The translations under genes were made by a program, and so were the position numbers. Below are positions 9,794 through 59,692 of a stretch of 64,000 nucleotides of DNA, piece by piece (positions within the stretch are counted from its first letter, which is position 1; every line of letters begins with the position of its first letter). This DNA comes from an uncultured Magnetococcales bacterium. Lineage in GTDB: Bacteria > Pseudomonadota > Alphaproteobacteria > UBA2136. The stretch lies in NCBI GenBank assembly GCA_963974105.1, contig CAXBBG010000001.1:706793-770792 (forward strand), written 5' to 3'. Below the pieces are notes generated by a model. That model saw only the letters and a list, made by a program, of their open reading frames with translations, had not been told where the DNA came from and did not search any database.

Positions 9794-10438
9794 ATGAAAA
9801 TAACTCAAATAACACCCGATGGCGTTATTTTATCCACTTTAGCGACTGAAGCATTTCAGAAAATGCGTCAACTGGAAAATAAAAACGACCCCAATCGAAG
9901 AAGTGACTTGTATGGCCCTTATGAAGCTGTATGGCTTGAACGTACTGGAAAATTGCCACCTGAATATTTTGAAAAGGATGACCCCAATCCGTGGAAACTG
10001 CTTGCTGATGAAGCACGCCGTAACATTTTATGGCAAGCGCTTTCGGGTTGCTTGGACATTAATACGCAGTGGGCGCTTGTGTATATTCAGTTGGTTATGG
10101 ATAAAGCTTTGAATGATGATGATTTTGCAAAAGAACTTGCACAGGTGAATAAGCAGTTTTTGCATAGCTTAGATCACATGCATGCAGGGCACAACACACA
10201 GAATCATATGAAGCATCACATTGGTCACATTGACTGCCCCGGCTGCTCTGCAACGGCCGCATTATTGATGATTGATCCTCAAATTCGTGCCCGTTTTGAA
10301 AAAGAGCTTAAAAATTTAAGTAAACTTTCCCCAAGCGATCGTATGGATATTTTAAAGCAAGAAGGTTTAGATAAATATTTAAACAGCACCATACAAAATG
10401 AAAAAAACGGCAAAATTATTTTGCCTGATAGCGTGTAA
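9794..10438 (+). CDS. His-rich putative metal-binding protein
   Basis: Sits divergent from the Zur-like operon. Contains the cluster HMHAGHNTQNHMKHHIGHIDCPGC. No signal peptide. Confidence 0.55.
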   Translation: MKITQITPDGVILSTLATEAFQKMRQLENKNDPNRRSDLYGPYEAVWLERTGKLPPEYFEKDDPNPWKLLADEARRNILWQALSGCLDINTQWALVYIQLVMDKALNDDDFAKELAQVNKQFLHSLDHMHAGHNTQNHMKHHIGHIDCPGCSATAALLMIDPQIRARFEKELKNLSKLSPSDRMDILKQEGLDKYLNSTIQNEKNGKIILPDSV

Positions 10439-32000: not shown

Positions 32001-32619
32001 CCATTCAAATGTATTAACATCAACAGCTGGCACATTGGCGAACCAACTTGGTTACTCATATGCCTTCAATGCTGGCGACTTAACAGTTAACAAAGCCGAC
32101 TTAACAGTAACACTTATTGACAATGCACCAACAAAGGTAGAGGGCAATGTCAATCCAATTTTTGACCTTTCGTATACAGGCTTCAAGCTTGCTGACAACG
32201 CATCAGTTGTTGATACAATTAATGTGACAACACTGGCCGATACATCAAGCGGTGCGGGGGTATACAATATTGATATTGCAGGTAGTGATAACAACTACAA
32301 CCTACTTATAACAAATCCATCAGGTAAATTAACTGTCACCGCCAAGCCTGCAAGTAGTATACCTACGAAAGCTCAGATTTCAGCAAAACCTACAATAAGC
32401 GTTATTAATACCGCTACCAATAAGTCTATAAACAACTCAAATATAAACGTTCAATACAACGGTGCTAATAATTTATATGAAGAGGCAACTATTCTTGATG
32501 GGCTTATAAACATACATCCACGTGTTGCAGCCTTGTTCAAATTAAAGGGAGCAGACACACAAGTGACAACTGGTGACAGTAGGTGGAAACGTGACACCGT
32601 ATTACGTGGGCTTGAATAA
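29047..32619 (+). CDS. TpsA exoprotein with an N-terminal TPS domain, an internal LamG-like domain and a C-terminal MBG-like repeat
   Basis: TPS domain (NPAGGVISGGAATIT…IDWRSFDIDVGEHTEF…ANGNVVLINPNGLFFG). LamG-like segment (DWHHVAATLD…IFIDGVSMQTG…DDMRIYNTVL). MBG-like segment (YGDTYGG…GDLTVNKADLTVT). Confidence 0.85.
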   Translation: MFENKMLGVYFLCGVSMLALSPMSSVYANPAGGVISGGAATITSNANKLDIHQQTNRAVIDWRSFDIDVGEHTEFHQPSSSAIALNRVNSVDPSQIMGKLSANGNVVLINPNGLFFGASSRIDVNGLLATTVDIDTDDFMNGSMHFNKPGKSGAGIINQGLITAKEAGLVGLVAPNVINSGIIEAKYGQVHLSSADSMVVDFYGDGLYQLKVSDAVKSQIVQNTGTLISEGGVIAITAASGKDIVNSLIHIEGEVLAPTITQKEGRIIIAAAGSNAVEGNITASKGVKNGKSTVVLSKAYIDASGDETGEKGGVVEITADQIFLTDNSVLNTNGHSVENYNEAAIGTATMTASKEVRSADEFLAHENRVGGSIKIGGDYLGKGDTAAAEYVYVSHDSYIINDTIQSGDAGRTIVWADNTTEFSGNVFARGGLKGGHGGFLETSGKINLLAGGYADLQAKSGFKQGTYLLDPSVINIYGNIDSAFTTSNLINHWDFEEGSGATVTDQIGSDDGAITGAVYNADTPSILMPTSNDYSLDFSNDTVNFGDINAIELAPVTVSFWAKSDTTNADQGFLYKGIHSTNQPLLIWRDNAVGSGQQAGNSNAISVLVYDGATQDWVSTPTNSFNDTDWHHVAATLDPVTNNQIEIFIDGVSMQTGAMASNGIRANANNLTMGKATSGGTGLTGHMDDMRIYNTVLDAKNIEELSGNAFTVKGLELMSQTADIILQADNTINLDFDGEQLDLANDKSITLQTINGNITDNSAGTIRTNRTGAGGNITMTAGGSGSINLDTTNLEALSGGVVNLSAGGNVNLKQVSALNLNSVTGNTVTIQTTGSTADITLNNTITASNSGNAIIMASGDDFINNVGATVLNTTDMNGRWLVYSETPTANTRNSLLPDSSDYGFTYATLAPGAVTAGNHFIYSNATRPTLTYTVNDSSLEYGDTYGGSSISSVSGLLTGDTLANIGLTGSNFFTTTYTAGDNAGVHSNVLTSTAGTLANQLGYSYAFNAGDLTVNKADLTVTLIDNAPTKVEGNVNPIFDLSYTGFKLADNASVVDTINVTTLADTSSGAGVYNIDIAGSDNNYNLLITNPSGKLTVTAKPASSIPTKAQISAKPTISVINTATNKSINNSNINVQYNGANNLYEEATILDGLINIHPRVAALFKLKGADTQVTTGDSRWKRDTVLRGLE

Positions 32620-47536: not shown

Positions 47537-49165
47537 ATGATGCCAAGAGAGTCTATGCCATTTGACGTTATTGTTGTTGGGGCTGGGCCTGCGGGCTTGT
47601 CTGCGGCTATTCGTTTGAAACAAGTCGCAGCTGAAAAACAAATGGATATTTCTGTTTGTGTTGTTGAAAAAGGTGCTGAAGTAGGTGCTCATTTGCTTTC
47701 TGGCGCTGTTTTTGAACCACGTGCCTTAAACGAACTTCTACCAAATTGGGAAGATTTGGGGGCACCCTTAAAAACTAAAGTGACGGCGGATAAGTTTGCT
47801 TGGATGCGTCATCAAAATGCAATGCATGTTTTGCCTACACCACCACAAATGCATAATGCAGGTAATTACATTATAAGCCTTGGTGAATTGGGTAAATGGC
47901 TTGCTGTACAAGCCGAGTCTTTAGGTGTTGAAATTTATCCAGGTTTTGCGGCTTCAGAAGTTCTATATCATGAAGATGGTAGCGTAAAAGGTGTTGCCAC
48001 GGGTGACATGGGCATTGGTAAAAATGGCGAAAAAACTGATAACTATGTACAAGGTGTAGAATTACATGCCAAACAAACTATTTTTAGTGAAGGTTGTCGA
48101 GGTTCACTCACTAAAACGGTTATAGAAAAATTTAACTTAGATGCAGCAAAAGACCCTCAAACCTATGCCTTAGGCATTAAAGAGGTATGGGAAATTAAAC
48201 CTGAAAATCATAAAGAAGGTACTGTGCTACACACAATTGGTTGGCCTTTGAAAAATGACACTTACGGTGGCTCTTTTGTTTACCATATGGCTGACAATAA
48301 AATATCTGTTGGTTTTGTGGTGGGTCTTGATTACACAAATCCAACGCTTTCTCCATTTGAAGAAATGCAACGATATAAACACCACGCAGAGATTTCATCT
48401 TTATTAGAAGGTGGTAAACGCATTGCTTATGGCGCGCGTACCTTGGTTGAAGGTGGTGTTCAATCTATGCCAAAATTGACATTTCCTGGAGGTATGCTTG
48501 TGGGTGATTGTGCTGGAACATTGAATGTGGCTAAAATAAAGGGTAACCATACAGCGATGAAAAGCGGTATGGTGGCAGCAGACGCTATATTAGAACATTT
48601 TAAAGCTGGCGGCACACATGAAGAAGTAGTGGCATACGAAGTGAATTTTAAAGCTTCTTGGGCTTATAAAGAACTTTATAAAGTGCGCAATATTCGCCCT
48701 GGTTTCCAAAAAGGTCTTATACGTGGTTTATTAAACGCAGCTAAGGAAACTTATGTAGGTTCAAGCGGTACTTTAAGTAACCATGCTGACCATAGCCAAC
48801 TTAAACTATCAAGTGCTGTTAAGGCGATTGTATATCCTAAACCTGATGGTGTGATTAGTTTTGATAGGCTTTCTTCAGTATTTTTGTCGAACACGTTCCA
48901 CGAAGAAAATCAGCCAATTCACTTAAAGCTTAAAGATGAGTCTACAGCTGTTGATGTGAACTATAAAAATTTTGCATCACCTGAAACAAAATATTGTCCA
49001 GCAGGGGTTTATGAAATTTTAGAAGCTGCTGATGGTATTGTAACGCTTCAGATAAATGCCGCTAATTGCTTGCACTGTAAGGCTTGCGATATTAAAGATC
49101 CTAAGCAAAATATCACTTGGACAGTGCCTGAAGGTGGCGGTGGTCCTAATTACGGTACAATGTAA
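47537..49165 (+). CDS. electron-transferring-flavoprotein:ubiquinone oxidoreductase
   Basis: N-terminal FAD fold (DVIVVGAGPAGLSAAIRL). C-terminal 4Fe-4S ferredoxin-like Cys cluster (CPAGVYE…CLHCKACDIKDP). Confidence 0.9.
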   Translation: MMPRESMPFDVIVVGAGPAGLSAAIRLKQVAAEKQMDISVCVVEKGAEVGAHLLSGAVFEPRALNELLPNWEDLGAPLKTKVTADKFAWMRHQNAMHVLPTPPQMHNAGNYIISLGELGKWLAVQAESLGVEIYPGFAASEVLYHEDGSVKGVATGDMGIGKNGEKTDNYVQGVELHAKQTIFSEGCRGSLTKTVIEKFNLDAAKDPQTYALGIKEVWEIKPENHKEGTVLHTIGWPLKNDTYGGSFVYHMADNKISVGFVVGLDYTNPTLSPFEEMQRYKHHAEISSLLEGGKRIAYGARTLVEGGVQSMPKLTFPGGMLVGDCAGTLNVAKIKGNHTAMKSGMVAADAILEHFKAGGTHEEVVAYEVNFKASWAYKELYKVRNIRPGFQKGLIRGLLNAAKETYVGSSGTLSNHADHSQLKLSSAVKAIVYPKPDGVISFDRLSSVFLSNTFHEENQPIHLKLKDESTAVDVNYKNFASPETKYCPAGVYEILEAADGIVTLQINAANCLHCKACDIKDPKQNITWTVPEGGGGPNYGTM

Positions 49166-49173
49166 TAAAAAAA

Positions 49174-49198
49174 GCCTCCAAAATGGAGGCTTTTTTTT
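49174..49198. terminator. bidirectional terminator
   Basis: GCCTCCA-AAA-TGGAGGC hairpin flanked by A7 and T8 runs. It can serve both ETF-QO (+) and the convergent protease gene (-). Confidence 0.6.
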
Positions 49199-49973
49199 AA
49201 TGATAATAACCGTAATGTTTTATCAAAGCATCGATAATAATTTTGCTAGGTGTTACCAAACCATACAAAATTGTTGGATTGTGCGGTATATATTCGCCGT
49301 AAAAATATTGGTCATCTTTTTTATAAAAAGCAAATGGAGACTCTGTAGTTGAAAGTTTTCTGTGTGTAACGCCGAGTACATAACCATCTTGGTCTAAAAC
49401 AGGTGCGCCAGACGTGCCATGGATAATTTCTTTGTTTGCGTCTAATATATAGCCTTGAGTATTGTCTGATAAGTAGTGAGAAACATAACGCATAGTGTGC
49501 GGGCAAAACCCTTCTGTGTTTACAATAACTTTATCAGAGTGGTTCACCGATTTTAATGGTAATTCTTTCATGACAAAATGTTCTGGGCAGTCTTCAATTT
49601 CTAAAATGGCAATATCGGTACAGCCTTGAACGAAACTTAATTGTATGCCATCTATAAAAGTATCCCTTAAGTCCTTTTCGTGGATGCATAAAATGTGTTT
49701 TGCTTTAAGGCTTTGATTGTATGTGTTTTGAACGATGAGCTCATCACCGTATATAAATTCACATGTAGGTTTCCAAAATTTAAAGAAAGAGTTTTTCTTA
49801 GTATGTTGTATAACATGTGCGTTGGTCACAAATAATTTTTTACCGTAAGGGTTTTGAATGGCAAAGCAAGTACCGTAATTACATATGTTATCTTTGAATA
49901 TAATTGAATACAATTTCAAGCTGTTTGAAGGGAGCATGATAATGCCCTCCGTAGAAGCAGAGAATAAGATCAC
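49197..49973 (-). CDS. trypsin-like (S1-fold) serine protease, apparently cytoplasmic
   Basis: Catalytic-triad context: His (FVTNAHVI), Asp (TDIAILEI), Ser (HGTSGAPVLD). No signal peptide. Confidence 0.6.
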   Translation of the reverse strand: MILFSASTEGIIMLPSNSLKLYSIIFKDNICNYGTCFAIQNPYGKKLFVTNAHVIQHTKKNSFFKFWKPTCEFIYGDELIVQNTYNQSLKAKHILCIHEKDLRDTFIDGIQLSFVQGCTDIAILEIEDCPEHFVMKELPLKSVNHSDKVIVNTEGFCPHTMRYVSHYLSDNTQGYILDANKEIIHGTSGAPVLDQDGYVLGVTHRKLSTTESPFAFYKKDDQYFYGEYIPHNPTILYGLVTPSKIIIDALIKHYGYYH

Positions 49974-50057
49974 CTTAATAAAAGGCTGTGTGTAAAAGAT
50001 TTAGATGTTTTGTATGCAGTTAAATTACATAGTATACAGAGCTATGGCAAGAAAAAA

Positions 50058-50080
50058 GCCTCAGGAGAGGCTTTAAAGAA
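50058..50080 (-). terminator. terminator for the exonuclease gene
   Basis: GCCTC-AGGA-GAGGC hairpin with a T run on the minus strand. Confidence 0.4.
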
Positions 50081-50093
50081 TAGGCTGTCTTAT

Positions 50094-50708
50094 TTAAATA
50101 AAGTCAGATAGTGACATTTTTTCAGTTTCGACAAAGTGTCTAAAAGTAAGAAGAATAGATAAACTATCAGCGGTTGCGTCATGAATGTGTCCATCAAACG
50201 GTAATCCAAAAAAATTAGCCAAAGAACCGCTGGTGTTGGCTTTCAGGTCTTCTTCTGACATACCTGCAGTATGTAACATTTTGCGCACGTCACGGCAGAG
50301 TTGCGGGTTTAATGGGGTATCTTGTTGCCATAAAAAGCAACTTAGAGAAATTTCACGTTCATCACCTCCATAGCTGTAGCAAAGGTCTTCACCCACAAAG
50401 TTTTTAATTTCTGAAAGTGCTTCAGGAATTTCTTGAGCATTCTCATCAAGTATATCTTGAGTGATATGGGTGAGGTCTGTGAAATATTTTGTAAGGTCAA
50501 TATTGTTACCAAATACATCGACAGGCTGAAGGAAGATATTGCAACGGTCTACTTCTGGTAAACCTTTTTCTAATTTTACCTTGATAGCACTGAATTGTAT
50601 AAGGTAAGGGGGGTGGTCCTTTAAACCATTCCATCCGCGTGCCATGCACCCTTCGTCGCTCCAATATTCTGCGTCGTAGATGACGATAGTTTCAGGTGTA
50701 TTTTGCAT
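50094..50708 (-). CDS. DEDDh-type 3'-5' exonuclease-like protein
   Basis: Motif I D-x-E (IVIYDAEYW), an internal acidic GGDERE, and motif III H-x4-D (HIHDATADS). Confidence 0.55.
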   Translation of the reverse strand: MQNTPETIVIYDAEYWSDEGCMARGWNGLKDHPPYLIQFSAIKVKLEKGLPEVDRCNIFLQPVDVFGNNIDLTKYFTDLTHITQDILDENAQEIPEALSEIKNFVGEDLCYSYGGDEREISLSCFLWQQDTPLNPQLCRDVRKMLHTAGMSEEDLKANTSGSLANFFGLPFDGHIHDATADSLSILLTFRHFVETEKMSLSDFI

Positions 50709-50764
50709 GTTTTTTCTCGTATGTTTAAAAGGGGAGTATATACTAGATTGTTATTTATTAGGTA

Positions 50765-50792
50765 ATAAAAAAAGCCCCCTTGATGGAGGCTT
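50765..50792 (-). terminator. candidate terminator downstream of the giant gene
   Basis: An imperfect hairpin AGCCTCC…GGGGCT followed by a T run on the minus strand. Confidence 0.35.
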
Positions 50793-50807
50793 TTTAAGTT
50801 GTTTAAA

Positions 50808-53800
50808 TTATTGTCTACATATTTGGAACTTGCTTGTTGCTGGGTTCCAGCGCATACGACCAAGGTCACCCGCACCTGAACAAACTTCAGAACCTGTACC
50901 AGCTACCTTCACACTACCAGACACGTCAAGCGCGCTTTCGGTTACGGCTAGTACTGGCACACCGTCTACGTCTACGTTTACAACACCTGTTCCAGCATCA
51001 ATAATGCTTACGCTTGTGTCCGCCACGGCGATATCTGTTCCGCCACCAACACCTGTTAATCCAGAACCGTCACCCACGAAGGCTGTGGCTGTTACTGTAC
51101 CAGAAACATCAAGCTCTGTTGTTGGTGTTACTTTGCCAATACCAATTTTGTCTGTTGCTAAATCACCGTAAATAGTATTACCAATGTTGAGTTCGTCTGA
51201 TGCTGTTGCACTACTTGCGTCAATACCACTACCAATAAGAATGTTACGTGCACCTGTAGTTGTTGTGAAACCAGACTCATGCCCTATAAATGTGTTGTCA
51301 TCAGCTCCACCTTGTAGTGCAGTACCCGACTGAGAACCTATAGCTGTTAGGCGAGTGTATGCTGCATTACCAAACATACCTTTACCTGCTGAATAACCTA
51401 CAGCTGTATTATCACTTCCTCTGCTCATGGCAAGAGCTTGGTCACCTATAGCTGTATTGTTATGAGATGTTCTGTTTTCACTCAAACTGCTTCGACCAAA
51501 TGCAGCGTTTTGATTACCCGTAGTATTTTTGCTCAATGATAGAGAGCCGTATGCACTGTTCCAGCTACCTGTTGTGTTAGCTAGAAGTGCTTGGTAACCT
51601 GTAGAAGCATTGTAATTACCTGTAGTGTTTGCAACTAACGCACTTCCACCTACAGCTGTATTGGCAAATCCTGTGGTCGTCGCTTTTAATGTTTCGTAAC
51701 CAAGTGCAGTATTTTCGCTGCCGCTTGTGTTTGAGGTTAAAGCATTTTTACCTACTGCTACGTTTTTATTACTTGTTCCGTCGTCATTTACACCTGACCC
51801 ATCACCGAGAAATAGGCTTGACCCATAATAAATAGCGTCAGATAGACCATTAATGTTTGTAGCACCGCCAAGTCCGTCAGAAACACTGATACAGTTTGCG
51901 CCAGTTTCGTCGCAAATATCGGCAACGCTTAGCGTACCTGTTAATGAAACCTGTTCAGACCCACTTGCCATAGAACCTTTAATAAGGTTACCAATGTTGA
52001 TTTGGTCGTCACCTGTAATGCTTGCAAGGGTAACATTACTACCAATAGCAATGTTGTTGCTACCCGTTGTAAGGGTGTTACCTGCATATGCACCGACAAG
52101 TGTGTTACTTGTACCTGTTGTTGCGGCAACACCTGCACGATAACCTAACATTGTATTAAAGTCGGCGCCTGTAGCAACGGCATAACCTGCGCCGTAACCT
52201 AAAGCTGTGCCACCAGTAACGCTATAGTTAATGTTGTTACCACCCATAGCTGAACCACCAATGGCAGTATTGAATAGACCTGTTTGGTTTCTATTTAATG
52301 CTGACTCACCTAGAGCTGTGTTATGTGTACCCGTTGTTAGCGAGTTTGATGAACCATAACCTACAGACGTGTTTTGTTTTGCACCTGTTTGTATAAGGTT
52401 ACCTGAAAGACCACCAACGAATACGTTTTCTTCAATACCTGTCATACCACTTGTACCAACACCAGCTCCGCTACCAATGGCAATGTTGTGGTCACCTGCT
52501 CCTGTTTTGTAGTAAAGTGCGCTTCGCCCAATAGCAACGTTATTACCAGAAGTTGTGTTTGAATAAAGTGCTGTACGCCCTAATGCAACGTTACTGTCAC
52601 CGCTTGTATTACTTGAAAGTGAAAACTTACCAAGAGCTGTGTTATAACCACCTGTTGTATTGGCGAGCATAGATTGGTAACCAATTGCTGTGTTATCAAC
52701 ACCAGAAGTATTTGCAGTTAAGGCATCTTTACCAACGGCTGTGGCAAGGTTTGCACCGTCGTCATTTGCACCCGCACCGTTACCAAGGAACACGCTGGAT
52801 CCATCGTAAATACCGTCACTTAGGTCGTTAATTGATGTAACACCAGAAGCAGCAGTTGAAGCTACCCATTCACCTGCGGCATTGTCCCATGTTAGGTATT
52901 GGCCGTCTGTTGGCGCAAGTGAGCTTGAAACGTCGCTCAGCTCTGTTAAAGCACTTGCAGCGGCTGAAGCATCGGTTGTTTTCCAAGTCGAACCATCACA
53001 AAATTCAAGAGCCGATGAACCAGTGCTGTATCGTATAGCACCTTCATGAAGTCCATCACATGTTTCTCCACCATTTGAAAGCATGATTGAACCAGATACT
53101 TCCAAAGCGGCTGAAGGTGCTACGGTTGTGCCAATGGCCAATGTATTTGTTACAGAAATATCTGCAAATTCAACTGCGCTGTCTTTACGTAAGAATTGTT
53201 CAAGTTGGGCAACTATGCTCCATTCTTGGCTTGAAATAGAAGCGCCATCAATTTTAGCTATTTGGCTTAGCTCGCCAACCTGTAAAATGGTGTTAGAAAC
53301 GTTTTGCACACTTGTTGGTATGTTTGTCACGTCGTACCAGTCGGCAGAGCCGGCGGCTACGCCCGTTAAGCCAGAGCCGTCACCAATGAAGGCAGTGGCA
53401 GTTACTGTGCCAGAAACGTCCAATTCCGTTGTTGGGTTTGTTTTACCAATACCAATTTTGTCTGTTGAAAGGTCACCGTATATGGTGTTACCAATGTTCA
53501 GTTCGTCTGAAGCTGTTGGTGCTGTTGTGTCAACATTTGCACCAATTAAAATGTTACGCGCACCTGTTGTGGTGGCTTGACCAGACTGCATACCAACAAA
53601 TGTGTTAGAGTTACCACCAGTGAGTAAGTTATACCCAGATTGTACACCTACCAATGTGTTATTATCAATATCTGAATTACCTGATGAACCAGCACCTGCT
53701 AGGGCACCAATTGCAATGTTGTTACTACCTATAGTGTTATATCTCAATGCATAATGACCACTGGCATTGTTATTTATACCTGTTGTGTTGTTATACAAAG

Positions 53801-56800
53801 AGGCATAACCACTGGCAGTGTTGTTTATACCTGATGTATTTCTATAAAGAGCAGCTTCACCTAGGGCTGTGTTATAACTTCCCCCTGCGTTGCTGTAAAG
53901 AGATGTATAGCCATACCCAGTGTTTGAGCGACCTGTAGTGTTATTGTACAGAGAATGCGTACCGGTGGCAGTGTTATTAAAACCAGTAGTGTTGCTGTTC
54001 AACGTGTACTGACCTGTAGCCGCATTGTTGTAACCTGTTGTATTGCTAGCCAGCGATGAATGACCAACAGCTGAGTTGTAGAAACCTGTTGTGTTTGCAT
54101 TCATTGAATTTGTACCTACAGCCAGGTTGTGGTTATCAGTACCGTCATCAGCAGCACCTGCGCCATTACCAAGGAATAGGCTTGAATAATCATCTGTGTC
54201 GTATTTAGTGTCGGTTAGGTCATTTAAGCCAATAGTTACAGAAGTGGCGGTTACACCTGTAAGTGCTGAACCATCACCAGCAAAAGCTGTGGCAGTTACT
54301 GTACCAGAAACGTCCAATTCCGTTGTTGGGCTTGTTTTACCAATACCAATTTTGTCTGTTGAAAGGTCACCGTATATGGTGTTACCAATGTTCAGTTCGT
54401 CTGAAGCTGTTGGTGCTGTTGTGTCAACATTTGCACCAATTAAAATGTTACGTGCACCAGTTGTTACATTGTCACCTGCCGTGTAGCCTAGGAAAGTGTT
54501 GTTATCTGCCCCAGTTTTTACATCCTGTCCACTTTGGTAACCTATGAATGTGTTGTTTGAAATATTACTTAAACCAGAATCACCTACACCAGCACCATAA
54601 CCGATAGCTGTATTTGAATTACCTGTTTCATTATATCTAAGGGCAAGCATACCCAATGAAGTATTGGTGGTACCGCTTACGTTGCTTGACTGGTTTAAAC
54701 GGCCAATCGCTGTATTGTAAGAACCTGTTGTGGCATTTCCTAAGGACAGAGAACCGAAGGCGGTGTTTTCACTACCTGTTGCATAACGTAAAGAACGGTG
54801 CCCAACAGCTGTGCTATTTGTAGATGTAGTATTTGTTGTAAGAGCTTGATAACCCATAGCAACGTTTGCACCACCCGTTGTGTTTGAGTAAAGTGCACTA
54901 TAACCTATACCAATGTTTTGGTTAGATGTGCCGTCATCAAACTCACCTGCATTGTTACCTAAAAATAGGCTAGATGCATCGTCTGAATCGTGTTTAGCGT
55001 CGCTTAAGTCGTTAATGCCAATAGACATTGAACTTGCGTCAAGGTTTGTAAGGCCAGAACCGTCACCCACAAAAGCTGTGGCAGTTACTGTGGTAGAAAC
55101 GTCCAGTGATCCGTCAATTTCGGTATCACCATTTGCAACGTTAATACGCACAACGCCAGTAGCAGCTGACGCTGAGTCATTACCAAAGCGCATCAAGTTG
55201 TCACCTGGTTTGCCAAATATACGCTTAGAACCGTTAAATTCTACAAAGGCTTGTGATGTACCTCTTGAAGTTACGTAAACACCTGCTGGGCCTGCTGAAG
55301 CTGAAGGTCTGTCAATTGTTAAGTATGGTGAACCTGAACTGTGAATGTGTAAAGTTGTAGAAGGTTCACTTGTGCCTACACCCACCATTTTGGTAGTAAG
55401 GTCACCATAAATGGTATTACCAATGTTGAGTTCGTCAGAAGCTGTTGGTGCTGTTGTGTCAACATTTGAGCCAATTAAAATGTTACGTGCACCAGTTGTG
55501 GTTATGTCACCAGCCTTGTAGCCGAGGAAAGTGTTGTTATCTGCACCTGTTCGTATCAGCGCGCCACTATCGAAACCAACGATAACGTTATTACTAACGT
55601 TTGATGCACCTGAAGCTCCTTCAGCAGAACCAGCACCTAAAATAAGGTTTTCACTACCTGTTTCATTATTTAATAATGAGCGGTCACCGATAGCTAAGTT
55701 ATAATTACCAGTGCTGTTATTGGTTGCGGTTTGTGCACCAATGGCTAAGTTATTTCCACCAGTGCCGTTATTCATCATAGCCTGATGACCAATAGCCATG
55801 TTACTATCACCCGAGTTACCACGAAGTGTTAAATGACCAAGGGCAATGTTACCTGCATTTGTTGTATTATCTTCAAGTGCAAGAAAACCAATTGCAAGGT
55901 TAGAGCTACCCGTTGTTGTGTTTGTGAGGGCATTTCTACCAAAACCATAGTTTTTGTTATCGGTACCGTCATCAGCAGCACCTGCGCCATTACCAAGGAA
56001 TAGGCTCGAATAATCGTCTGTATCATGCTTAGCGTCGCTTAAGTCGTTAATGCCAATAGACATAGCGCTTGCGTCAAGGTTTGTAAGGCCAGAACCGTCA
56101 CCAGTAAAGGTTGTTGCGCTAATGTTACCTGTTGCGGCCATGCCGCCCCCAGCAAAGATAACGCCGTCAATTGTTTGTGTACCACTTACATTTAATGCAC
56201 CTGCAATGGTAAGTGTACCGCCAATAAACCCGTCACCAGAAGCATTTAAAATGTTAAGGTCAGTTGTACCTGCAACAGTTAAGTCGTCTGTAATAGAAAC
56301 ATCGGCCACAGTTAAGTGGTCGGCAATGGTTGCGTCACCTGTTGATGTGAGGCTTGTACCAGAAATAGATGCGCCTGTAATATTTGCAAAAGTGACGCTG
56401 TCAGTTGTGGCAACGCCTTGATCCATAGCGCCAAGGTAACCAAATTGTGTGTTAGAAATGGTTACGGCGTTAATGTTTTGTAATTGAGTTAGCTCGGCTG
56501 TGGTAAGTTCAGTATTTGAAATGGCTGAAATGCCTGTTGGCATATTTGAAATGCTGTACCAATCGGCACTTGAAGCAGTGACACCAGTTAAGCCTGAGCC
56601 GTCACCAATAAAAGCTGTGGCTGAAACTGTACCTGAAACGTCAAGTGCTGCTGCACCATTTACGCTTAGGTTGCCGTCACAAATAATGTCAGTTCCGTCT
56701 GTATAACAGAGGTCGTTGACTGTCAATGTTCCTACTGTTCCAATGTTACCCCAAGTACTGGCCATTGCCGTACCTGCCGAAAGTACAGTAACCAACGTTG

Positions 56801-56822
56801 CTCTAAATATAAGTTTTACCAC
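50808..56822 (-). CDS. giant (~2004 aa) secreted repetitive fibre/adhesin-like protein with phage-tail-fibre-like periodic repeats
   Basis: One uninterrupted ORF. I placed the start at GTG 56822 (AAGGG RBS, signal peptide MVKLIFRATLVTVLSAGTAMA). It is dominated by ~14-15-residue N/T/G/A-rich periods (NTAIGYQALxSNTTGxxN). At least six conserved junction modules recur: ELNIGNTIYGDLSTDKIGIGKTxPTTELDVSGTVTATAFxGDGSGLTGV. Confidence 0.8.
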   Translation of the reverse strand: MVKLIFRATLVTVLSAGTAMASTWGNIGTVGTLTVNDLCYTDGTDIICDGNLSVNGAAALDVSGTVSATAFIGDGSGLTGVTASSADWYSISNMPTGISAISNTELTTAELTQLQNINAVTISNTQFGYLGAMDQGVATTDSVTFANITGASISGTSLTSTGDATIADHLTVADVSITDDLTVAGTTDLNILNASGDGFIGGTLTIAGALNVSGTQTIDGVIFAGGGMAATGNISATTFTGDGSGLTNLDASAMSIGINDLSDAKHDTDDYSSLFLGNGAGAADDGTDNKNYGFGRNALTNTTTGSSNLAIGFLALEDNTTNAGNIALGHLTLRGNSGDSNMAIGHQAMMNNGTGGNNLAIGAQTATNNSTGNYNLAIGDRSLLNNETGSENLILGAGSAEGASGASNVSNNVIVGFDSGALIRTGADNNTFLGYKAGDITTTGARNILIGSNVDTTAPTASDELNIGNTIYGDLTTKMVGVGTSEPSTTLHIHSSGSPYLTIDRPSASAGPAGVYVTSRGTSQAFVEFNGSKRIFGKPGDNLMRFGNDSASAATGVVRINVANGDTEIDGSLDVSTTVTATAFVGDGSGLTNLDASSMSIGINDLSDAKHDSDDASSLFLGNNAGEFDDGTSNQNIGIGYSALYSNTTGGANVAMGYQALTTNTTSTNSTAVGHRSLRYATGSENTAFGSLSLGNATTGSYNTAIGRLNQSSNVSGTTNTSLGMLALRYNETGNSNTAIGYGAGVGDSGLSNISNNTFIGYQSGQDVKTGADNNTFLGYTAGDNVTTGARNILIGANVDTTAPTASDELNIGNTIYGDLSTDKIGIGKTSPTTELDVSGTVTATAFAGDGSALTGVTATSVTIGLNDLTDTKYDTDDYSSLFLGNGAGAADDGTDNHNLAVGTNSMNANTTGFYNSAVGHSSLASNTTGYNNAATGQYTLNSNTTGFNNTATGTHSLYNNTTGRSNTGYGYTSLYSNAGGSYNTALGEAALYRNTSGINNTASGYASLYNNTTGINNNASGHYALRYNTIGSNNIAIGALAGAGSSGNSDIDNNTLVGVQSGYNLLTGGNSNTFVGMQSGQATTTGARNILIGANVDTTAPTASDELNIGNTIYGDLSTDKIGIGKTNPTTELDVSGTVTATAFIGDGSGLTGVAAGSADWYDVTNIPTSVQNVSNTILQVGELSQIAKIDGASISSQEWSIVAQLEQFLRKDSAVEFADISVTNTLAIGTTVAPSAALEVSGSIMLSNGGETCDGLHEGAIRYSTGSSALEFCDGSTWKTTDASAAASALTELSDVSSSLAPTDGQYLTWDNAAGEWVASTAASGVTSINDLSDGIYDGSSVFLGNGAGANDDGANLATAVGKDALTANTSGVDNTAIGYQSMLANTTGGYNTALGKFSLSSNTSGDSNVALGRTALYSNTTSGNNVAIGRSALYYKTGAGDHNIAIGSGAGVGTSGMTGIEENVFVGGLSGNLIQTGAKQNTSVGYGSSNSLTTGTHNTALGESALNRNQTGLFNTAIGGSAMGGNNINYSVTGGTALGYGAGYAVATGADFNTMLGYRAGVAATTGTSNTLVGAYAGNTLTTGSNNIAIGSNVTLASITGDDQINIGNLIKGSMASGSEQVSLTGTLSVADICDETGANCISVSDGLGGATNINGLSDAIYYGSSLFLGDGSGVNDDGTSNKNVAVGKNALTSNTSGSENTALGYETLKATTTGFANTAVGGSALVANTTGNYNASTGYQALLANTTGSWNSAYGSLSLSKNTTGNQNAAFGRSSLSENRTSHNNTAIGDQALAMSRGSDNTAVGYSAGKGMFGNAAYTRLTAIGSQSGTALQGGADDNTFIGHESGFTTTTGARNILIGSGIDASSATASDELNIGNTIYGDLATDKIGIGKVTPTTELDVSGTVTATAFVGDGSGLTGVGGGTDIAVADTSVSIIDAGTGVVNVDVDGVPVLAVTESALDVSGSVKVAGTGSEVCSGAGDLGRMRWNPATSKFQICRQ
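53397..53560. repeat. intragenic near-identical DNA repeat, copy A
   Basis: About 163 bp nearly identical to 54292-54454, encoding the junction module. Diverged copies lie at ~51060-51170 and 55401-55497. Confidence 0.6.
54292..54454. repeat. intragenic near-identical DNA repeat, copy B
   Basis: Matches 53397-53560 with only a few mismatches or indels. Confidence 0.6.
55401..55497. repeat. intragenic repeat, shorter copy C
   Basis: GTCACCATAAATGGTATTACCAATGTTGAGTTCGTC…CCAATTAAAATGTTACGTGCACC shares roughly 90% identity with the corresponding parts of copies A and B. Confidence 0.5.
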
Positions 56823-57002
56823 TTTGTTACCCTTAATATAATAATCATACACACAATATAGCTCGCTATCATACAAGCATACAAACTTATAGGTGTGGAT
56901 GATAATAAAAAAATGACATAAGGCAATGCGTTGTAGATATATAATGTTGGGATGTGACAAAAACTCCCATATTGCTTATGGTAAGCTTATTTATTACATT
57001 TC

Positions 57003-58445
57003 TTAAGCAGTTGCAGCTTGTTCAGAATTTGTCTTATCATTATATTCTTTTAGTTTATTACGAAGTGTGCGAATGGAAATTCCTAAAATGCCAGCGGCAT
57101 GTGTGCGGTTACCTTTGCAATAGTTGAGCGTTGATAGTATGAGCTCTTGTTCCATTTCTTGAACGGTACGACCAACCATATCTGCAGCACTTGGCTCTGT
57201 TCCACCAATACCTTTTTCAAAACCGCCAGACGCATTGGCGTATGCACCTGCGGCAGCAGAGCTAAGCGCGCGCTTTTTGCTGTCGTCAGTAGGGACAGGG
57301 GCTTGGTTTATGGTTGATGCCATATTTTGACTCATAGGAGATATAGTAATGTGTTCAGGACACATTATGTTGTCGTCTCCCATCATTAAAACAGCACGGT
57401 GAACTGTGTTTTCAAGTTCACGTACGTTCCCTTTCCAATAACAGCTTATAAGCTTTTGTTGGGATTCGTCATTGATGGTTATGTTGGTTAAGCCATTTTG
57501 TTCGCCATAAATTTTTGCAAAATATTCAGCCAGAGGAATAATATCACCTGGTCGATCACGCAAGGAAGGTATGTCAAGCATGACAACGTTTAATCTAAAG
57601 TAAAGGTCTTCTCTAAAATTACCTTTTGCAACCTCTTCTTCGAGATTGCGGTTTGTTGTTGCAATGAGCCTAATGTCGACAGGGACTGATTTAGTTGAGC
57701 CTACAGGGTCAATAACACGTTCTTGAATGGCACGTAATAGCTTGGCTTGCAAAAGGACATCCATTTCGCTAATTTCGTCCAAAAGGAGAGTGCCACCATC
57801 AGCCTGTTGAAATTTACCCATTCGGCTGTTGATAGCGCCACTAAAAGCACCTTTTTCGTGGCCAAATAATTCACTTTCAATCAGTGTTTCTGGTATGGCA
57901 GCGCAGTTTAAGCTAACAAATGGTTTGTCTTTGCGTGGGCTGTTGTTATGAATGAAATTTGAAAATACTTCTTTACCTGTCCCACTTTCACCACGTAATA
58001 AAATAGTAGCATTTGAAGATGCAAATTTTTTGGATAAATCAAGAAGGCTTATCGTTGCAGGGTCGCCGTGAACAGGGCCTTTAGTTGTTTTAGATGGCTT
58101 AACGCGTTCAATAAGGGTTTGTGCTAAGTCACCTTCTAAAGGTGTTGACAGGTATTCAATTGCACCAAGGCGTATAGCTTTAACAGCATTTTGAACAGGT
58201 TGAGAAGGCCCAGTTACAACGGTTGGTACATTTATTTTATTTTCATTTAACTTGGTAAAATAAGACGGTAATTCAGAGTTGACGTCTAAAAATACCATAT
58301 CTATTTTTTTTTCACATAAGACTTTAATAGCCATTTCAATATCTGTTGCTTGAATGGTGTTGACGTCTTGTTCTTTTGCGATTTTAGTGAGAGATGATGC
58401 AGCATCTTTTAAAGCGCCAATGAGCAGAATATTTGCTTGCGTCAT
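57003..58445 (-). CDS. flbD: sigma-54-dependent transcriptional activator, FlbD/FleR-like
   Basis: Receiver-like N-domain. AAA+ sigma-54 interaction domain (GESGTGKE…GAFSGA GAFTGA-loop…LLLDEISE). C-terminal Fis-type HTH. Sits at the end of the flagellar operon. Confidence 0.85.
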   Translation of the reverse strand: MTQANILLIGALKDAASSLTKIAKEQDVNTIQATDIEMAIKVLCEKKIDMVFLDVNSELPSYFTKLNENKINVPTVVTGPSQPVQNAVKAIRLGAIEYLSTPLEGDLAQTLIERVKPSKTTKGPVHGDPATISLLDLSKKFASSNATILLRGESGTGKEVFSNFIHNNSPRKDKPFVSLNCAAIPETLIESELFGHEKGAFSGAINSRMGKFQQADGGTLLLDEISEMDVLLQAKLLRAIQERVIDPVGSTKSVPVDIRLIATTNRNLEEEVAKGNFREDLYFRLNVVMLDIPSLRDRPGDIIPLAEYFAKIYGEQNGLTNITINDESQQKLISCYWKGNVRELENTVHRAVLMMGDDNIMCPEHITISPMSQNMASTINQAPVPTDDSKKRALSSAAAGAYANASGGFEKGIGGTEPSAADMVGRTVQEMEQELILSTLNYCKGNRTHAAGILGISIRTLRNKLKEYNDKTNSEQAATA

Positions 58446-58481
58446 CTTGTCATCTCTCCTTTGTGATTGAATTAATTTTAA

Positions 58482-59240
58482 TTAGTCAAACATGCTAATG
58501 CGTTTGCTTGGTGGCAAAATAGTGTTAAGCACTAATTCAAGCTGTCGTGGGTTTTCTTGGCGTACGACACTCAGCACAGAAGACGTGTAAATTTTACGAA
58601 TTTGAGCTTCATTACGGCTATTTAATTCTAATTTTGCGGCAAGCGGGTTGAAGACCATGTTGGCCATTACAGCACCATACATTGTCGTAAGTAGGGCAAT
58701 CGCCATCGCAGGGCCGATAGAGCTTGGGTCGTCGAGTGATCCGAGCATGATAACCAAACCAATTAAAGTACCAACTAAGCCCATTGCAGGAGCGATTTCA
58801 GCACTCTTTTTAAGGACAAGGGCGCCGCTCATGTGGCGTTCTAGCATGCCCGCTGTGTCAGATTTCATGATATTTTCAATAACTTCAGGGTTTGTTCCGT
58901 CGACAGCTAACCCAAATGCTTGTTTTAAAAATTCGTTTGGAATTTGGTCAATATCACCTTGAATGGCTAAAATGCCGTTTGCACGGGCTTTTTGTGCGAG
59001 CTCGATCATGTTTTTAGCTTCATCATCTGCAGCAGGTAGTTTAAATAATACAGTTTTAAGCATAATACCCTGAGCTTTAATGATATCGCTTAAGCTAAAG
59101 CAGACTGTAGTAATAGAAAAGGTGCCGCCAATAACAATAAGAATAGATGGTGGGTCAATAAAGCTTGGCATGTTACTACCAATACCACCTGCTACAAAAC
59201 CAAATCCAAGGAGTAAACCAAGAAGAGTTGCAATATCCAT
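58482..59240 (-). CDS. motA: flagellar stator protein MotA/PomA
   Basis: Four-TM MotA/TolQ/ExbB fold with a conserved C-terminal half (…AIALLTTMYGAVMANMVFNPLA…). Confidence 0.85.
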   Translation of the reverse strand: MDIATLLGLLLGFGFVAGGIGSNMPSFIDPPSILIVIGGTFSITTVCFSLSDIIKAQGIMLKTVLFKLPAADDEAKNMIELAQKARANGILAIQGDIDQIPNEFLKQAFGLAVDGTNPEVIENIMKSDTAGMLERHMSGALVLKKSAEIAPAMGLVGTLIGLVIMLGSLDDPSSIGPAMAIALLTTMYGAVMANMVFNPLAAKLELNSRNEAQIRKIYTSSVLSVVRQENPRQLELVLNTILPPSKRISMFD

Positions 59241-59607: not shown

Positions 59608-59692
59608 GAGTTGTCTTTTCCAATAATTTTTATTTGTGCCTTTATTTTAAGCAATGCATTAAGTATGCCATAAACTTTTTCAAAAGAAAATA

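What the first reader, a model, noticed from the sequence alone, without database searches (positions are those of the whole stretch)
50808..56822. Giant secreted repetitive fibre-like protein with near-identical internal DNA repeats, directly downstream of flbD
One 6-kb ORF encodes a signal-peptide-bearing protein built from ~14-15-residue N/T/G/A-rich periods (a beta-helix or tail-fibre-like flavour, NTAxGxxALxxNTTG). It is punctuated at least six times by a highly conserved ~45-aa junction (ELNIGNTIYGDLSTDKIGIGKTxPTTELDVSGTVTATAFxGDGSGLTGV) and by LSDAKHD(T/S)DDYSSLFLGNGAG modules. It ends in a Cys-containing C-terminus (…EVCSGAGDLGRMRWNPATSKFQICRQ). At the DNA level three or more junction-encoding segments of ~100-165 bp are near-identical (53397-53560, 54292-54454, 55401-55497). 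Those are substrates for slipped or homologous recombination, so the gene could change length or phase. It sits immediately 3' of the flagellar activator flbD on the same strand with no obvious terminator between them, so co-expression with late flagellar genes is possible. I cannot place it in a named adhesin or S-layer family.
Basis: seen in the sequence. Interest (0 to 1): 0.65.

Follow-up and report, generated by a model that had tools for sequence, protein, structure and literature searches.

The report
Giant phage-tail-fibre-like surface fibre gene
This 6-kb gene of an uncultured marine alphaproteobacterium most likely encodes a very long, exported, phage-tail-fibre-like surface fibre built from swappable modules, of a kind known from predatory bacteria and phages; related strains have gained or lost whole modules by recombination at its repeated junctions.

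Summary
One intact ORF (window 50808-56822, minus strand, 2004 aa) lies 180 nt downstream of an FlbD-like sigma-54 activator. It has a signal-peptide-like N-terminus and five beta-roll "head" modules built from 17-residue repeats (not 14-15). Conserved junctions (IGIGKTxPTTELDVSGTVTATAFxGDGSxLT) separate the modules. Two junction-coding stretches are 159/161 nt identical.

The heads resemble phage and giant-virus tail-fibre modules strongly and trimeric-autotransporter heads weakly. The junction matches the capping-loop motif of Bdellovibrio MAT fibres. There is no YadA anchor and no S74 chaperone domain.

Five loci (four from other assemblies) carry a fibre gene in the same slot (flbD, fibre, ETF-QO). 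All share the N-terminal ~80 aa and the C-terminal ~75 aa. Their interiors are completely different, and lengths are 878-2004 aa. Two ~95%-identical alleles differ by exactly one 227-codon module, with the breakpoint inside a junction repeat. So length variation by in-frame recombination happens in nature. On/off phase switching by these repeats is not expected.

No sigma-54 promoter precedes the gene. A conserved one lies upstream of fliN, in the same gene string.

Verdict: a new variant of a known kind, a cellular tail-fibre-like (MAT-like) adhesin. Surface location, trimer state, ligand and any link to the flagellum remain inferred.

The parts
50808..56822 (-). Fibre gene, 2004 aa plus stop codon; GTG start at 56822
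   Evidence: Intact ORF. RBS AAGGG 7 nt upstream of the GTG. 100% match to Tara protein P0001.
56760..56822 (-). Signal-peptide-like N-terminus (aa 1-21, MVKLIFRATLVTVLSAGTAMA|S)
   Evidence: In an alignment with four orthologues or paralogues, this stretch is variable in sequence but always hydrophobic and ends in AxA. An invariant mature N-terminus follows directly. Hydropathy was checked. No dedicated predictor was available.
56586..56759 (-). Conserved N-terminal domain (aa 22-79): WxNIGTVGT..LCYTDGTDIICD..VSGTVSATAFxGDGSxLT, with a Cys39/Cys48 pair
   Evidence: 64-70% identical in P0004, P0034, P0029 and P0023, although the interiors differ. Also found in metagenome loci L015-L019.
56061..56585 (-). 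N-proximal shaft region (aa 80-254) with a SADWYxIxNxP tail-fibre-type motif
   Evidence: 60% identical to a region of paralogue P0020, which sits on an 871,083-bp contig, the same length as the contig carrying this gene, so probably the same genome. Only 39% identical to the positional orthologue P0004. A second copy of the motif lies at aa 1150-1215.
55398..56060 (-). Head module H1 (aa 255-475): INDLSDAKHD..LFLGNGAG cap, 17-aa repeats, DELNIGNTIYGDL end
   Evidence: Module alignment A1; period 17.
55026..55397 (-). Insert domain (aa 476-599) that splits the first junction between its VGVGTSEPSTTL and DVSTTVTATAFVGDGSGLT halves
   Evidence: Read directly from the sequence. No Pfam hit.
54243..55025 (-). 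Head module H2 plus junction (aa 600-860)
53343..54236 (-). Head module H3 plus junction (aa 863-1160); this is the module whose structure was modelled
   Evidence: AF2 with a 25-row alignment gives pLDDT 88 and pTM 0.85, with one short strand per 17 aa. Foldseek searches are.
52842..53342 (-). Middle non-repeat region (aa 1161-1327) with a Cys1255/Cys1275 motif (GGETCDGLHEGAIRYSTGSSALEFCDGSTW) and LTWDNAAGEW
   Evidence: Resembles the C-terminal cap. No Pfam hit.
51873..52841 (-). Head module H4 (aa 1328-1650). It ends in a divergent junction (DQINIGNLIKG) with a Cys1637/1644 pair and no GDGS motif
51033..51863 (-). Head module H5 plus junction (aa 1654-1930)
50811..51050 (-). Conserved C-terminal domain (aa 1925-2004) ending ..VKVAGTGSEVCSGAGDLGRMRWNPATSKFQICRQ, with a Cys1981/2002 pair
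   Evidence: 73% identical in P0004 and 63% in P0034. The last ~45 aa match 419 representative clusters. In 108 of the 140 whose match reaches the end of the profile, the match lies at the extreme C-terminus. The AF2 monomer model is unusable (pLDDT 61).
54292..54454 (.). Junction-coding DNA repeat, copy B
   Evidence: 159/161 identical to 53397-53560, with a 121-nt exact run.
53397..53560 (.). Junction-coding DNA repeat, copy A (894 nt = 298 codons from copy B)
55401..55497 (.). Junction-coding DNA repeat, copy C (92% identical to A and B)
56823..57002 (-). flbD-fibre intergenic region with blocks conserved across four loci: TGTCATTTTTWTATTWT, CATAAR, TRTATRCTKGTA, ATTGTGTGTA, and the RBS TTAAGGGTA
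   Evidence: Alignment of window, L002, L012 and L018. No sigma-54 match. No consensus RNA structure. Only a weak hairpin at 56878-56861.
57003..58445 (-). FlbD-like sigma-54 activator gene, directly upstream on the same strand
   Evidence: 76-80% identical in L002 and L018; the L012 gene has the same length and domain content.
59655..59670 (-). Conserved sigma-54-type -24/-12 motif (TGGCATACTTAATGCA) between fliH and fliN. This is the nearest candidate sigma-54 promoter upstream of the fliN, motA-like, flbD, fibre gene string
   Evidence: Same position and same core in all five loci. It is the only match to TGG[CT]A[CT]N5[TA]TGC[ATC] in each locus.

Best explanation
The gene encodes a Sec-exported, probably trimeric, cell-surface fibre of the phage-tail-fibre-like kind. 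Bdellovibrio MAT fibres and the many giant proteins annotated 'tail fiber domain-containing' belong to the same kind.

Proposed architecture. After signal-peptide cleavage, a small conserved N-terminal domain would hold the fibre on the cell. Five beta-roll heads made of 17-residue turns follow. Short hairpin or capping-loop junctions (IGIGxxxPxxxLxVSGTVxATAFxGDGSxLT) link the heads into a long shaft. The shaft ends in a small, conserved, disulfide-bonded C-terminal cap.

Proposed function. The fibre most likely mediates adhesion to another surface, such as other cells, particles or a host.

Evolution. The interior is remodelled quickly, because the near-identical junction-coding DNA allows in-frame gene conversion and whole-module gain or loss.

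Shown here: the ORF, the module anatomy, homology to phage fibres, a confident beta-roll model, conserved ends with mosaic interiors, a natural one-module indel, and conserved position after flbD.

Inferred, not shown: export across the outer membrane, trimer state, surface display, adhesive function and ligand.
For: - Phage fibre homology. PHROG 6002 and 23837 (virion structural) and 4636 (tail spike) match at E 1e-80 to 1e-95 in 7-10 stretches each.
- Cellular relatives. 163 giant cellular homologues were found. Many carry Peptidase_S74, YadA_head or Chlorovirus glycoprotein repeat domains, and some are named 'tail fiber domain-containing protein'.
- Structure. The AF2 head model has pLDDT 88. 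In BFVD it gives 71 viral matches at E <= 1e-3, with TM up to 0.73, mostly S74-bearing fibres. tblastn finds 35-44% identity to annotated tail fibres of Pelagibacter and Roseobacter phages.
- Junction motif. It matches Bdellovibrio MAT fibre structures locally, at rmsd 0.7-1.5 A and probability 0.93-0.99. A sequence profile hits Bd3182 at E 0.009. The MAT paper defines the same motif, V-G-G/N-pi-x-x-P-x-x-x-L (PMC10769870).
- Export. The N-terminus behaves like a signal peptide across five family members. Four spaced Cys pairs and a composition of about 59% G/T/A/S/N fit an extracytoplasmic protein.
- Chromosomal setting. The gene is flanked by flagellar and ETF genes, with no phage genes. Five distinct loci share the same slot.
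- Ends versus interior. Ends are 63-73% identical. Interiors are 38-46% identical or of a different module type. Flanking genes are 80-94% identical.
- Recombination. Exact intragenic repeats of 121 nt (window) and 106 and 71 nt (L002) compare with at most 20 nt between orthologues. A 681-nt one-module indel separates two 95%-identical alleles, with its breakpoint in a ~51-nt junction repeat.
Against: - There is no experimental evidence on expression, localisation or binding.
- Pfam and NCBIfam recognise nothing in this protein.
- PDB fold matches to whole adhesin heads are weak (E 0.03, TM about 0.3).
- The C-terminal domain could not be modelled.
- No outer-membrane secretion or anchoring partner was identified nearby.
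- The MAT N-terminal domain could not be compared.
- The organism's lifestyle is unknown. It is an uncultured alphaproteobacterium and MAG labels disagree.
- The signal peptide was judged by eye and by alignment, not with a dedicated predictor.
Confidence: 0.72

Rival explanations
1. The fibre belongs to the flagellar regulon. It would be transcribed with fliN, the motA-like gene and flbD from the conserved sigma-54-type promoter, or from its own flagellum-coupled promoter. It would act at the flagellar pole or on the flagellum, for example as a polar adhesin of the motile cell. This refines the best explanation rather than excluding it.
For: The same-strand position directly after flbD is kept in five distinct loci, although the fibre interior has been completely remodelled. 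Gaps are short (83-180 nt) and lack a convincing terminator. A TGGCAT-N5-ATGCA motif upstream of fliN is conserved in all five loci. One Bdellovibrio MAT fibre (Bd1334) localises at the flagellar pole (PMC10769870).
Against: The whole neighbourhood is syntenic, including ETF-QO, ETF alpha and beta, pirin and APH. Linkage may therefore reflect general synteny rather than co-regulation. The flbD-fibre gap has conserved blocks of its own, which suggests a separate promoter or control element. No sigma-54 site lies in the gap. Family members with the same N-terminus sit at a non-flagellar locus next to ribF-ileS-lspA. More distant homologues have unrelated neighbours.
Confidence: 0.15
2. It is a structural tail fibre of a prophage, a tailocin or a gene transfer agent, encoded away from the main cluster and assembled into particles in the cytoplasm.
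For: The shaft modules are homologous to phage tail fibres and tail spikes. Some alphaproteobacterial gene transfer agents encode fibre genes outside the main cluster (general knowledge, not tested here).
Against: The Sec-type signal peptide is conserved as a feature in all family members. That is incompatible with cytoplasmic virion assembly. No phage genes lie within the locus, and the flanks are housekeeping and flagellar genes. The chromosomal slot is stable in five loci. IMG/VR contigs hold only 29-36% identical relatives. At 2004 aa with five heads it is far larger than the matched phage fibres.
Confidence: 0.04
3. It is a trimeric autotransporter adhesin (type Vc secretion).
For: The best whole-module PDB fold matches are TAA heads: BpaC, CbpF, UspA1 and EibD. 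Orthologues carry weak YadA_head Pfam hits. It has an N-terminal signal peptide.
Against: There is no YadA_anchor or any beta-barrel translocator domain at the C-terminus. The C-terminus is a Cys-bonded cap ending in CRQ, not an aromatic-terminated barrel strand. No coiled-coil stalk was seen. The fold matches are weak (E 0.03, TM 0.3).
Confidence: 0.02
4. It is a non-adhesive surface coat or shield, for example an S-layer-like or antigenically variable cover against grazers or phages. Module turnover would then serve immune or phage evasion rather than ligand recognition.
For: The interiors diverge rapidly between conserved ends, and module number varies from 878 to 2004 aa. The C-terminal tip is conserved rather than diversified. 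That differs from the receptor-binding tips of MAT fibres.
Against: There is no match to S-layer families or to defence models. The closest characterised relatives (phage fibres, MAT fibres, TAA heads) are all adhesins.
Confidence: 0.06
5. The repeats or the ORF are an assembly artefact: a collapsed or chimeric repeat region in a short-read metagenome assembly.
For: The source is a metagenome assembly. A 121-nt exact repeat spaced 894 nt apart could mislead short-read assemblers, so the copy number of H3-like modules is not secure.
Against: The ORF stays open for 6 kb in a 43% GC gene. The two near-identical tracts differ at 2 positions and flank modules that are only 61% identical. Independent assemblies of orthologues show the same architecture and their own long internal repeats. 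The same protein is recorded by two sources.
Confidence: 0.03

Closest known systems
Bdellovibrio bacteriovorus MAT (mosaic adhesive trimer) fibres, non-S74 subgroup (Caulton et al. 2024, PMC10769870)
   Same: Both have a signal peptide, a long phage-tail-fibre-like shaft, and the capping-loop motif [VI]-G-x-G/N-x-x-(x)-P-x-x-x-L. That motif matches Bd2133, Bd2439, Bd3182 and Bd1334 structures locally and Bd3182 by sequence profile. Both belong to multi-paralogue families with a shared N-terminus and mosaic remainder. Paralogues in related genomes end in S74 domains.
   Different: The N-terminal conserved domain here is about 60 aa with a Cys pair. In MATs it is about 130 aa and beta-rich. Homology between the two was not testable. 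This shaft is a string of five TAA-like beta-roll heads of 17-aa turns, not an intertwined beta-prism or beta-helix. The C-terminal tip is conserved among orthologues here, whereas MAT tips are the diversified part. The protein is twice the typical MAT length. The organism is an uncultured marine alphaproteobacterium of unknown lifestyle.
Phage and giant-virus tail fibres or tail spikes with a C-terminal Peptidase_S74 intramolecular chaperone (PF13884)
   Same: The head modules and the FxGDGSxLT / IGIGxxxP junctions are homologous (PHROG 4636, 6002 and 23837; BFVD matches; Pelagibacter and Roseobacter phage tail fibres).
   Different: This protein has no S74 domain. It has a Sec signal peptide. 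It is chromosomal and stably placed among cellular genes. It has five heads in tandem.
Trimeric autotransporter adhesin heads (YadA-like left-handed beta-roll; BpaC, CbpF, UspA1, EibD)
   Same: Both have a single-chain beta-roll built from short Gly/Asn/Ala-rich repeats. TAA heads are the best whole-module PDB fold matches. Orthologues at the same locus carry classical YadA_head repeats.
   Different: The period here is 17 residues. By general knowledge, not tested here, YadA-type heads have about 14. The match is weak (E 0.03, TM about 0.3). There is no neck/coiled-coil stalk architecture and no YadA_anchor barrel, so the secretion route must differ.
NCBI 'tail fiber domain-containing protein' of cellular genomes (e.g. 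Limnobacter P0019 and P0024; Alphaproteobacteria and Patescibacteria MAG proteins)
   Same: These are giant (1100-3500 aa) cellular proteins built from the same repeats. They were retrieved as homologues at E 1e-55 to 1e-139.
   Different: Those proteins are named for their S74-type 'tail fiber' domain, which is absent here. Identity is only 32-48% over parts. None has been characterised.

Membership tests
Trimeric autotransporter adhesin (type Vc) | C-terminal YadA_anchor beta-barrel translocator domain | tested here: not met
   Pfam scans of the whole protein and of the last 90 aa, at E up to 10, found no anchor. The C-terminus is a Cys-bonded cap ending ..FQICRQ.
Trimeric autotransporter adhesin (type Vc) | YadA-like head repeats (PF05658) / left-handed beta-roll | tested here: inconclusive
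   PF05658 was not detected in this protein and is only weak or faint in orthologues. The AF2 model has TAA heads as best PDB matches, but only at E 0.03 and TM 0.3. The period is 17 aa.
Trimeric autotransporter adhesin (type Vc) | N-terminal signal peptide | tested here: met
   A hydrophobic N-terminus ending in AMA|S, variable in sequence but conserved in character across five family members. No dedicated predictor was available.
MAT fibre superfamily (Bdellovibrio) | Capping-loop motif V-G-G/N-pi-x-x-P-x-x-x-L within a beta-helical fibre | tested here: met
   [IV]G[IV]G..P...L occurs 4 times. Foldseek gives local matches to 8ond, 8onf, 8onc and 8oml at rmsd 0.7-1.5 A and probability 0.93-0.99. 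A profile hit to 8ojn/8onb/8onc at E 0.009 aligns exactly this motif. The motif definition is from PMC10769870.
MAT fibre superfamily (Bdellovibrio) | Conserved ~130-aa beta-rich N-terminal domain directly after the signal peptide | not testable with these tools
   No Bdellovibrio N-terminal domain sequence or structure was available; PDB entries cover only C-terminal parts. This family has its own conserved ~60-aa N-terminal domain, which is shorter.
MAT fibre superfamily (Bdellovibrio) | Trimeric fibre displayed on the cell surface | not testable with these tools
   Only monomer prediction was possible. Localisation needs experiments.
MAT fibre superfamily (Bdellovibrio) | Several paralogues per genome: one end conserved, the other end a diversified adhesive tip or an S74 domain | tested here: inconclusive
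   Paralogues exist: P0020, on a contig of the same length as this gene's and so probably in the same genome, and tandem S74-ended genes in L013, L014, L016 and L017. At the flbD locus, however, both ends are conserved and the interior varies.
Phage tail fibre / tail spike with S74 intramolecular chaperone | C-terminal Peptidase_S74 domain with an SDxxxK catalytic motif | tested here: not met
   PF13884 is absent. The internal LSDAKHD motifs do not fit SDxxxK, and Ser is replaced by Thr in H3. Many homologues and paralogues do carry PF13884.
Phage tail fibre / tail spike with S74 intramolecular chaperone | Shaft or head modules homologous to virion fibre proteins | tested here: met
   PHROG 6002, 23837 and 4636; BFVD matches; tblastn hits to annotated tail fibres.
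Phage tail fibre / tail spike with S74 intramolecular chaperone | Encoded within a phage or prophage structural gene cluster | tested here: not met
   The neighbours are flagellar, ETF, RNase_T-like and peptidase genes. Five loci share this slot.
Chlorovirus glycoprotein repeat (PF06598) | Pfam match above the gathering threshold | tested here: not met
   The best match is E 0.028 at 15 bits, against a cutoff of 27. It lies on the FxGDGSxLT motif at aa 71-84.

The most novel reading that the evidence does not exclude
A phage-derived fibre has been wired into the flagellar gene hierarchy of this alphaproteobacterial lineage. It would be transcribed with fliN, the motA-like gene and flbD from a conserved sigma-54 promoter and displayed at the flagellar pole, or on the flagellum, of the motile cell. 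Motility and fibre-mediated capture of a target (prey, host or particle) would then be one co-regulated programme. The conserved Cys-bonded C-terminal cap, present in 419 protein clusters, would be a so-far unnamed tip or sorting module.
Probability: 0.12. Interest if true: 0.65.

Novelty: new variant of a known kind. Interest (0 to 1): 0.4.

Why it matters
Giant cellular proteins resembling phage tail fibres are very common in metagenomes and almost entirely uncharacterised. The only studied examples are the MAT fibres that Bdellovibrio uses to recognise prey.

This locus offers three things:
- A clean natural series. The chromosomal slot, the N-terminus and the C-terminus stay the same, while the interior ranges from 878 to 2004 aa. 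One pair of alleles differs by exactly one module. Together these show how such fibres are rebuilt by recombination at conserved junctions.
- A defined, widespread but unnamed C-terminal cap.
- A testable link to the flagellar operon.

The value lies in annotation and in understanding surface-protein evolution. No new principle is revealed.

Tried and rejected
- Pfam and NCBIfam on the whole protein and on six sub-regions gave nothing significant. The only hits were DUF1720 at E 0.01-0.02 (composition-driven) and Chlorovi_GP_rpt below threshold.
- PDB sequence searches found nothing with the single protein or the 5-row module profile. The C-terminal profile gave only a chance SOD hit.
- The AF2 model of the C-terminal 130 aa had pLDDT 61 and pTM 0.21. 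It was not used for fold search.
- Tandem Repeats Finder found no DNA-level tandem array and no simple-sequence tract of the kind that drives phase variation.
- A sigma-54 scan of the flbD-fibre gap found no site. Window-wide counts equal chance.
- RNAalifold on the gap found no consensus structure. Rfam found nothing in 49000-58600.
- PADLOC found no defence model for the fibre or for the RNase_T-like gene. The trypsin-like protein matches only the protease part of RT-protease models.
- Exact look-ups of P0001, P0121 and P0020 contigs were not on record.
- The FlbD scan of GTDB genomes found only one true relative.
- The RpoD search did not give a reliable taxon.
- The IMG/VR scan found no close viral copy.
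- The trimeric autotransporter, prophage and artefact readings were considered and rejected (see rival explanations).

Full report

Yes. The minus strand carries one uninterrupted ORF from 56960 to 50808. The identical protein is in the Tara gene catalogue (P0001). A longer start variant, P0121, is recorded on an 871-kb NCBI/ENA contig.

About 59% of the residues are G, T, A, S or N, and there are four spaced Cys pairs. FxGDGSxLT occurs six times. The cap motif (I/L)N(D/G)L(S/T)D...(L/V)FLG(N/D) occurs five times, and (D/Q)(E/Q)(L/I)NIGN also five times. The complete ~45-aa junction is intact three times. One more copy is split by a ~100-aa insert.

The repeat period is 17 residues, not 14-15.

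At the DNA level, 53397-53560 and 54292-54454 are 159/161 identical with a 121-nt exact run. The third copy is 92% identical. Identity drops sharply outside the tract. Orthologous genes share at most 20-nt exact matches.

The upstream gene (57003-58445) is an FlbD-like sigma-54 activator. Upstream of it, in order, lie a motA/exbB-like gene, fliN, fliH, fliG and fliF.

**2. Anatomy**

- Residues 1-21 look like a signal peptide. In an alignment with four family members, this stretch is variable but hydrophobic and ends in AxA. An invariant mature N-terminus follows: WxNIGTVGT..LCYTDGTDIICD..VSGTVSATAFxGDGSxLT.
- Five head modules follow: H1 255-475, H2 600-820, H3 863-1118, H4 1328-1618 and H5 1654-1888. 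They align with each other at 42-62% identity.
- Each head has a cap, then 8-13 turns of NTAxGxxALxxNTTGxx, then TGARNILIG...DELNIGNTIYGDL.
- Each head is followed by the junction IGIGKTxPTTELDVSGTVTATAFxGDGSxLT.
- Non-repeat regions lie at aa 80-254, 476-599 and 1161-1327.
- The last 80 residues form a separate conserved domain. It ends in a Cys-x20-Cys cap, ...GTGSEVC...DLGRMRWNPATSKFQICRQ.

**3. What the modules are**

Pfam, NCBIfam and PDB sequence searches are silent. PHROGs, however, gives three strong multi-stretch matches to virion structural and tail-spike families, at E 1e-80 to 1e-95.

An AF2 model of H3 plus its junction, built on a 25-row alignment, is confident (pLDDT 88, pTM 0.85). 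It shows one short strand per 17 residues, the pattern expected of a beta-roll.

- Against the PDB, the best whole-module matches are heads of trimeric autotransporters (BpaC, CbpF, UspA1, EibD). These are weak, at E 0.03 and TM about 0.3.
- The junction part superposes at 0.7-1.5 A on Bdellovibrio MAT fibres Bd2133, Bd2439, Bd3182 and Bd1334.
- A sequence profile of the module hits Bd3182 at E 0.009 on exactly that motif. The MAT paper describes the motif as a capping loop, V-G-G/N-pi-x-x-P-x-x-x-L (PMC10769870).
- Against predicted viral structures there are 71 matches at E <= 1e-3 with TM up to 0.73. Many are S74-bearing fibres of tailed phages and giant viruses.
- tblastn finds annotated tail fibres of Pelagibacter and Roseobacter phages at 35-44% identity.

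This protein has no S74 domain and no YadA anchor.

**4. Relatives and genomic context**

There are 163 giant homologues in cellular genomes and MAGs. Many carry S74, YadA_head or Chlorovirus-repeat domains.

Five distinct loci share the order fliF, fliG, fliH, fliN, motA-like, flbD, fibre, (RNase_T-like), ETF-QO:
- the window (2004 aa);
- L002, MAG JBLILN01 (1783 aa);
- L012, a Tara scaffold (1105 aa);
- L018, CEPV01012338 (1082 aa);
- L020, with the same allele also in L021 and L022 (894 aa as called, 878 aa from the start aligned with L012).

Between the window and L002, flanking proteins are 80-94% identical. The fibre's first 85 aa are 69% identical and its last 75 aa 73%. The rest is 38-46% identical or not alignable. 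L002 and L012 even use a different, classical YadA-type head in places.

Members with the same N-terminus but an S74 C-terminus sit in tandem next to ribF-ileS-lspA in related genomes. More distant homologues have unrelated neighbours. No phage genes lie nearby, and IMG/VR holds only 29-36% identical relatives.

The last ~45 residues match 419 representative clusters. In 108 of the 140 listed proteins whose match reaches the end of the profile, the match lies at the very C-terminus, typically ending CRP or CRQ. The module has no Pfam or PDB counterpart.

**5. Recombination**

Both the window gene and the L002 gene contain long exact internal repeats: 121 nt in the window, and 106 and 71 nt in L002. 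The junction sequences are homogenised within each gene but differ between genes. That is the signature of intragenic gene conversion.

The clearest evidence comes from L012 and L020:
- Their flanks are 95-96% identical in DNA, and their fibre genes 93-95%.
- They differ by one clean 681-nt (227-codon) indel.
- The indel removes or adds exactly one 17-aa-type head.
- The two alignment blocks overlap by ~51 nt, which places the breakpoint inside the junction repeat.

All repeat spacings in the window gene are multiples of three. Such events change length in frame and do not switch the gene off. No simple-sequence tracts were found.

**6. Regulation**

The 180-nt gap after flbD has no sigma-54 site and no convincing terminator. 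It does hold blocks conserved in four loci, plus a conserved RBS. No consensus RNA structure was found.

A TGGCAT-N5-ATGCA motif lies between fliH and fliN (window 59655-59670). It is conserved in position and core in all five loci, and it is the only such match in each locus.

Read-through from this promoter into the fibre gene is possible but unproven. Because the whole neighbourhood is syntenic, linkage alone is weak evidence for co-regulation.

**7. Interpretation**

The best-supported reading is a Sec-exported, probably trimeric, surface fibre of the phage-tail-fibre-like (MAT-like) kind. Its conserved ends would serve attachment and tip functions. Its interior is rebuilt by recombination at the junction repeats.

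It fails the defining tests for a trimeric autotransporter (no anchor) and for an S74 phage fibre (no S74 domain, signal peptide present, not in a phage cluster). MAT membership is met for the capping-loop motif and untestable for the N-terminal domain.

Trimer state, outer-membrane passage, surface display, ligand and any flagellar coupling are inferences. The host is an uncultured marine alphaproteobacterium whose MAG labels disagree, so lifestyle gives no help.

**8. Verdict**

The gene is a new variant of a known but poorly studied kind. Interest is moderate.

Noticed in passing
window 59655-59670 (-), and the same position in L002, L012, L018, L020: A sigma-54-type -24/-12 motif (TGGCAT-N5-ATGCA) lies in the fliH-fliN intergenic region and is perfectly conserved in place in all five loci. 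It suggests an internal sigma-54 promoter for fliN, the motA-like gene and flbD. In that case the FlbD-like activator might regulate its own gene.
   Followed up: partly
window 58482-59240 (-): A MotA/ExbB-family gene (252 aa) sits between fliN and flbD inside the fliF-type operon. It is 84-94% identical in relatives, making it the best-conserved gene of the cluster. From memory, not tested here, the Caulobacter fliF operon has no such gene.
   Followed up: no
window 5600-5615 (-), upstream of ORF 4598-5563 (-): The best sigma-54 consensus match in the window (TGGCATAAAGTTTGCA, 1 mismatch) lies 37 nt upstream of an RTX calcium-binding-repeat protein gene. It may be another sigma-54-dependent secreted protein.
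   Followed up: no
window 27280-28980 (+) and 29047-32619 (+): A two-partner secretion pair: a ShlB/FhaC-type transporter and a 1190-aa TpsA with TPS and LamG-like domains. This is a second large secreted-protein system in the window.
   Followed up: no
window 49197-49973 (-) and 50094-50708 (-): The trypsin-like peptidase gene has no match in L002 or L018 and no counterpart among the called genes of L012 or L020. The RNase_T-like exonuclease gene is present only in the window and L002. Both look like lineage-specific insertions between the fibre gene and ETF-QO.
   Followed up: partly
L013 3352-16511, L014 864-5988, L016, L017: In related genomes, two or three fibre genes with the same N-terminal domain but S74 C-termini lie in tandem next to ribF-ileS-lspA. 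In L014 a prepilin-type N_methyl (pseudopilin-like) gene follows at 5623-5988. This may hint at the export or display route.
   Followed up: no
C-terminal ~45 aa of the fibre (window 50811-50945) and proteins P0242-P0383: An unnamed Cys-x(~20)-Cys C-terminal cap (..VSGTxKVAGTGxExC....GxMRFN....Q.CRP/Q) occurs in 419 representative protein clusters of 58 to over 5000 aa, mostly at the extreme C-terminus. It has no Pfam or PDB counterpart.
   Followed up: partly
L012 about 7960-7985 and L018 about 9955-9980 (flbD-fibre gap): A small hairpin reads ATGCTG-GTAA-CAGCAT in L012 and ATACTG-GTAA-CAGTAT in L018, which is one compensatory double change. It lies just upstream of ATTGTGTGTA and the RBS. 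The window has only a weaker, different hairpin at 56878-56861, and no consensus structure emerged across the four loci.
   Followed up: partly
P0020 (on a contig of the same length, 871,083 bp, as the one carrying this gene; not in the window): This 1310-aa paralogue shares a 175-aa shaft segment at 60% identity with the window fibre. That is higher than the 39% shared with the positional orthologue P0004, which suggests exchange between paralogues. Its N-terminal half carries about nine Cys-pair repeats of a different type.
   Followed up: no
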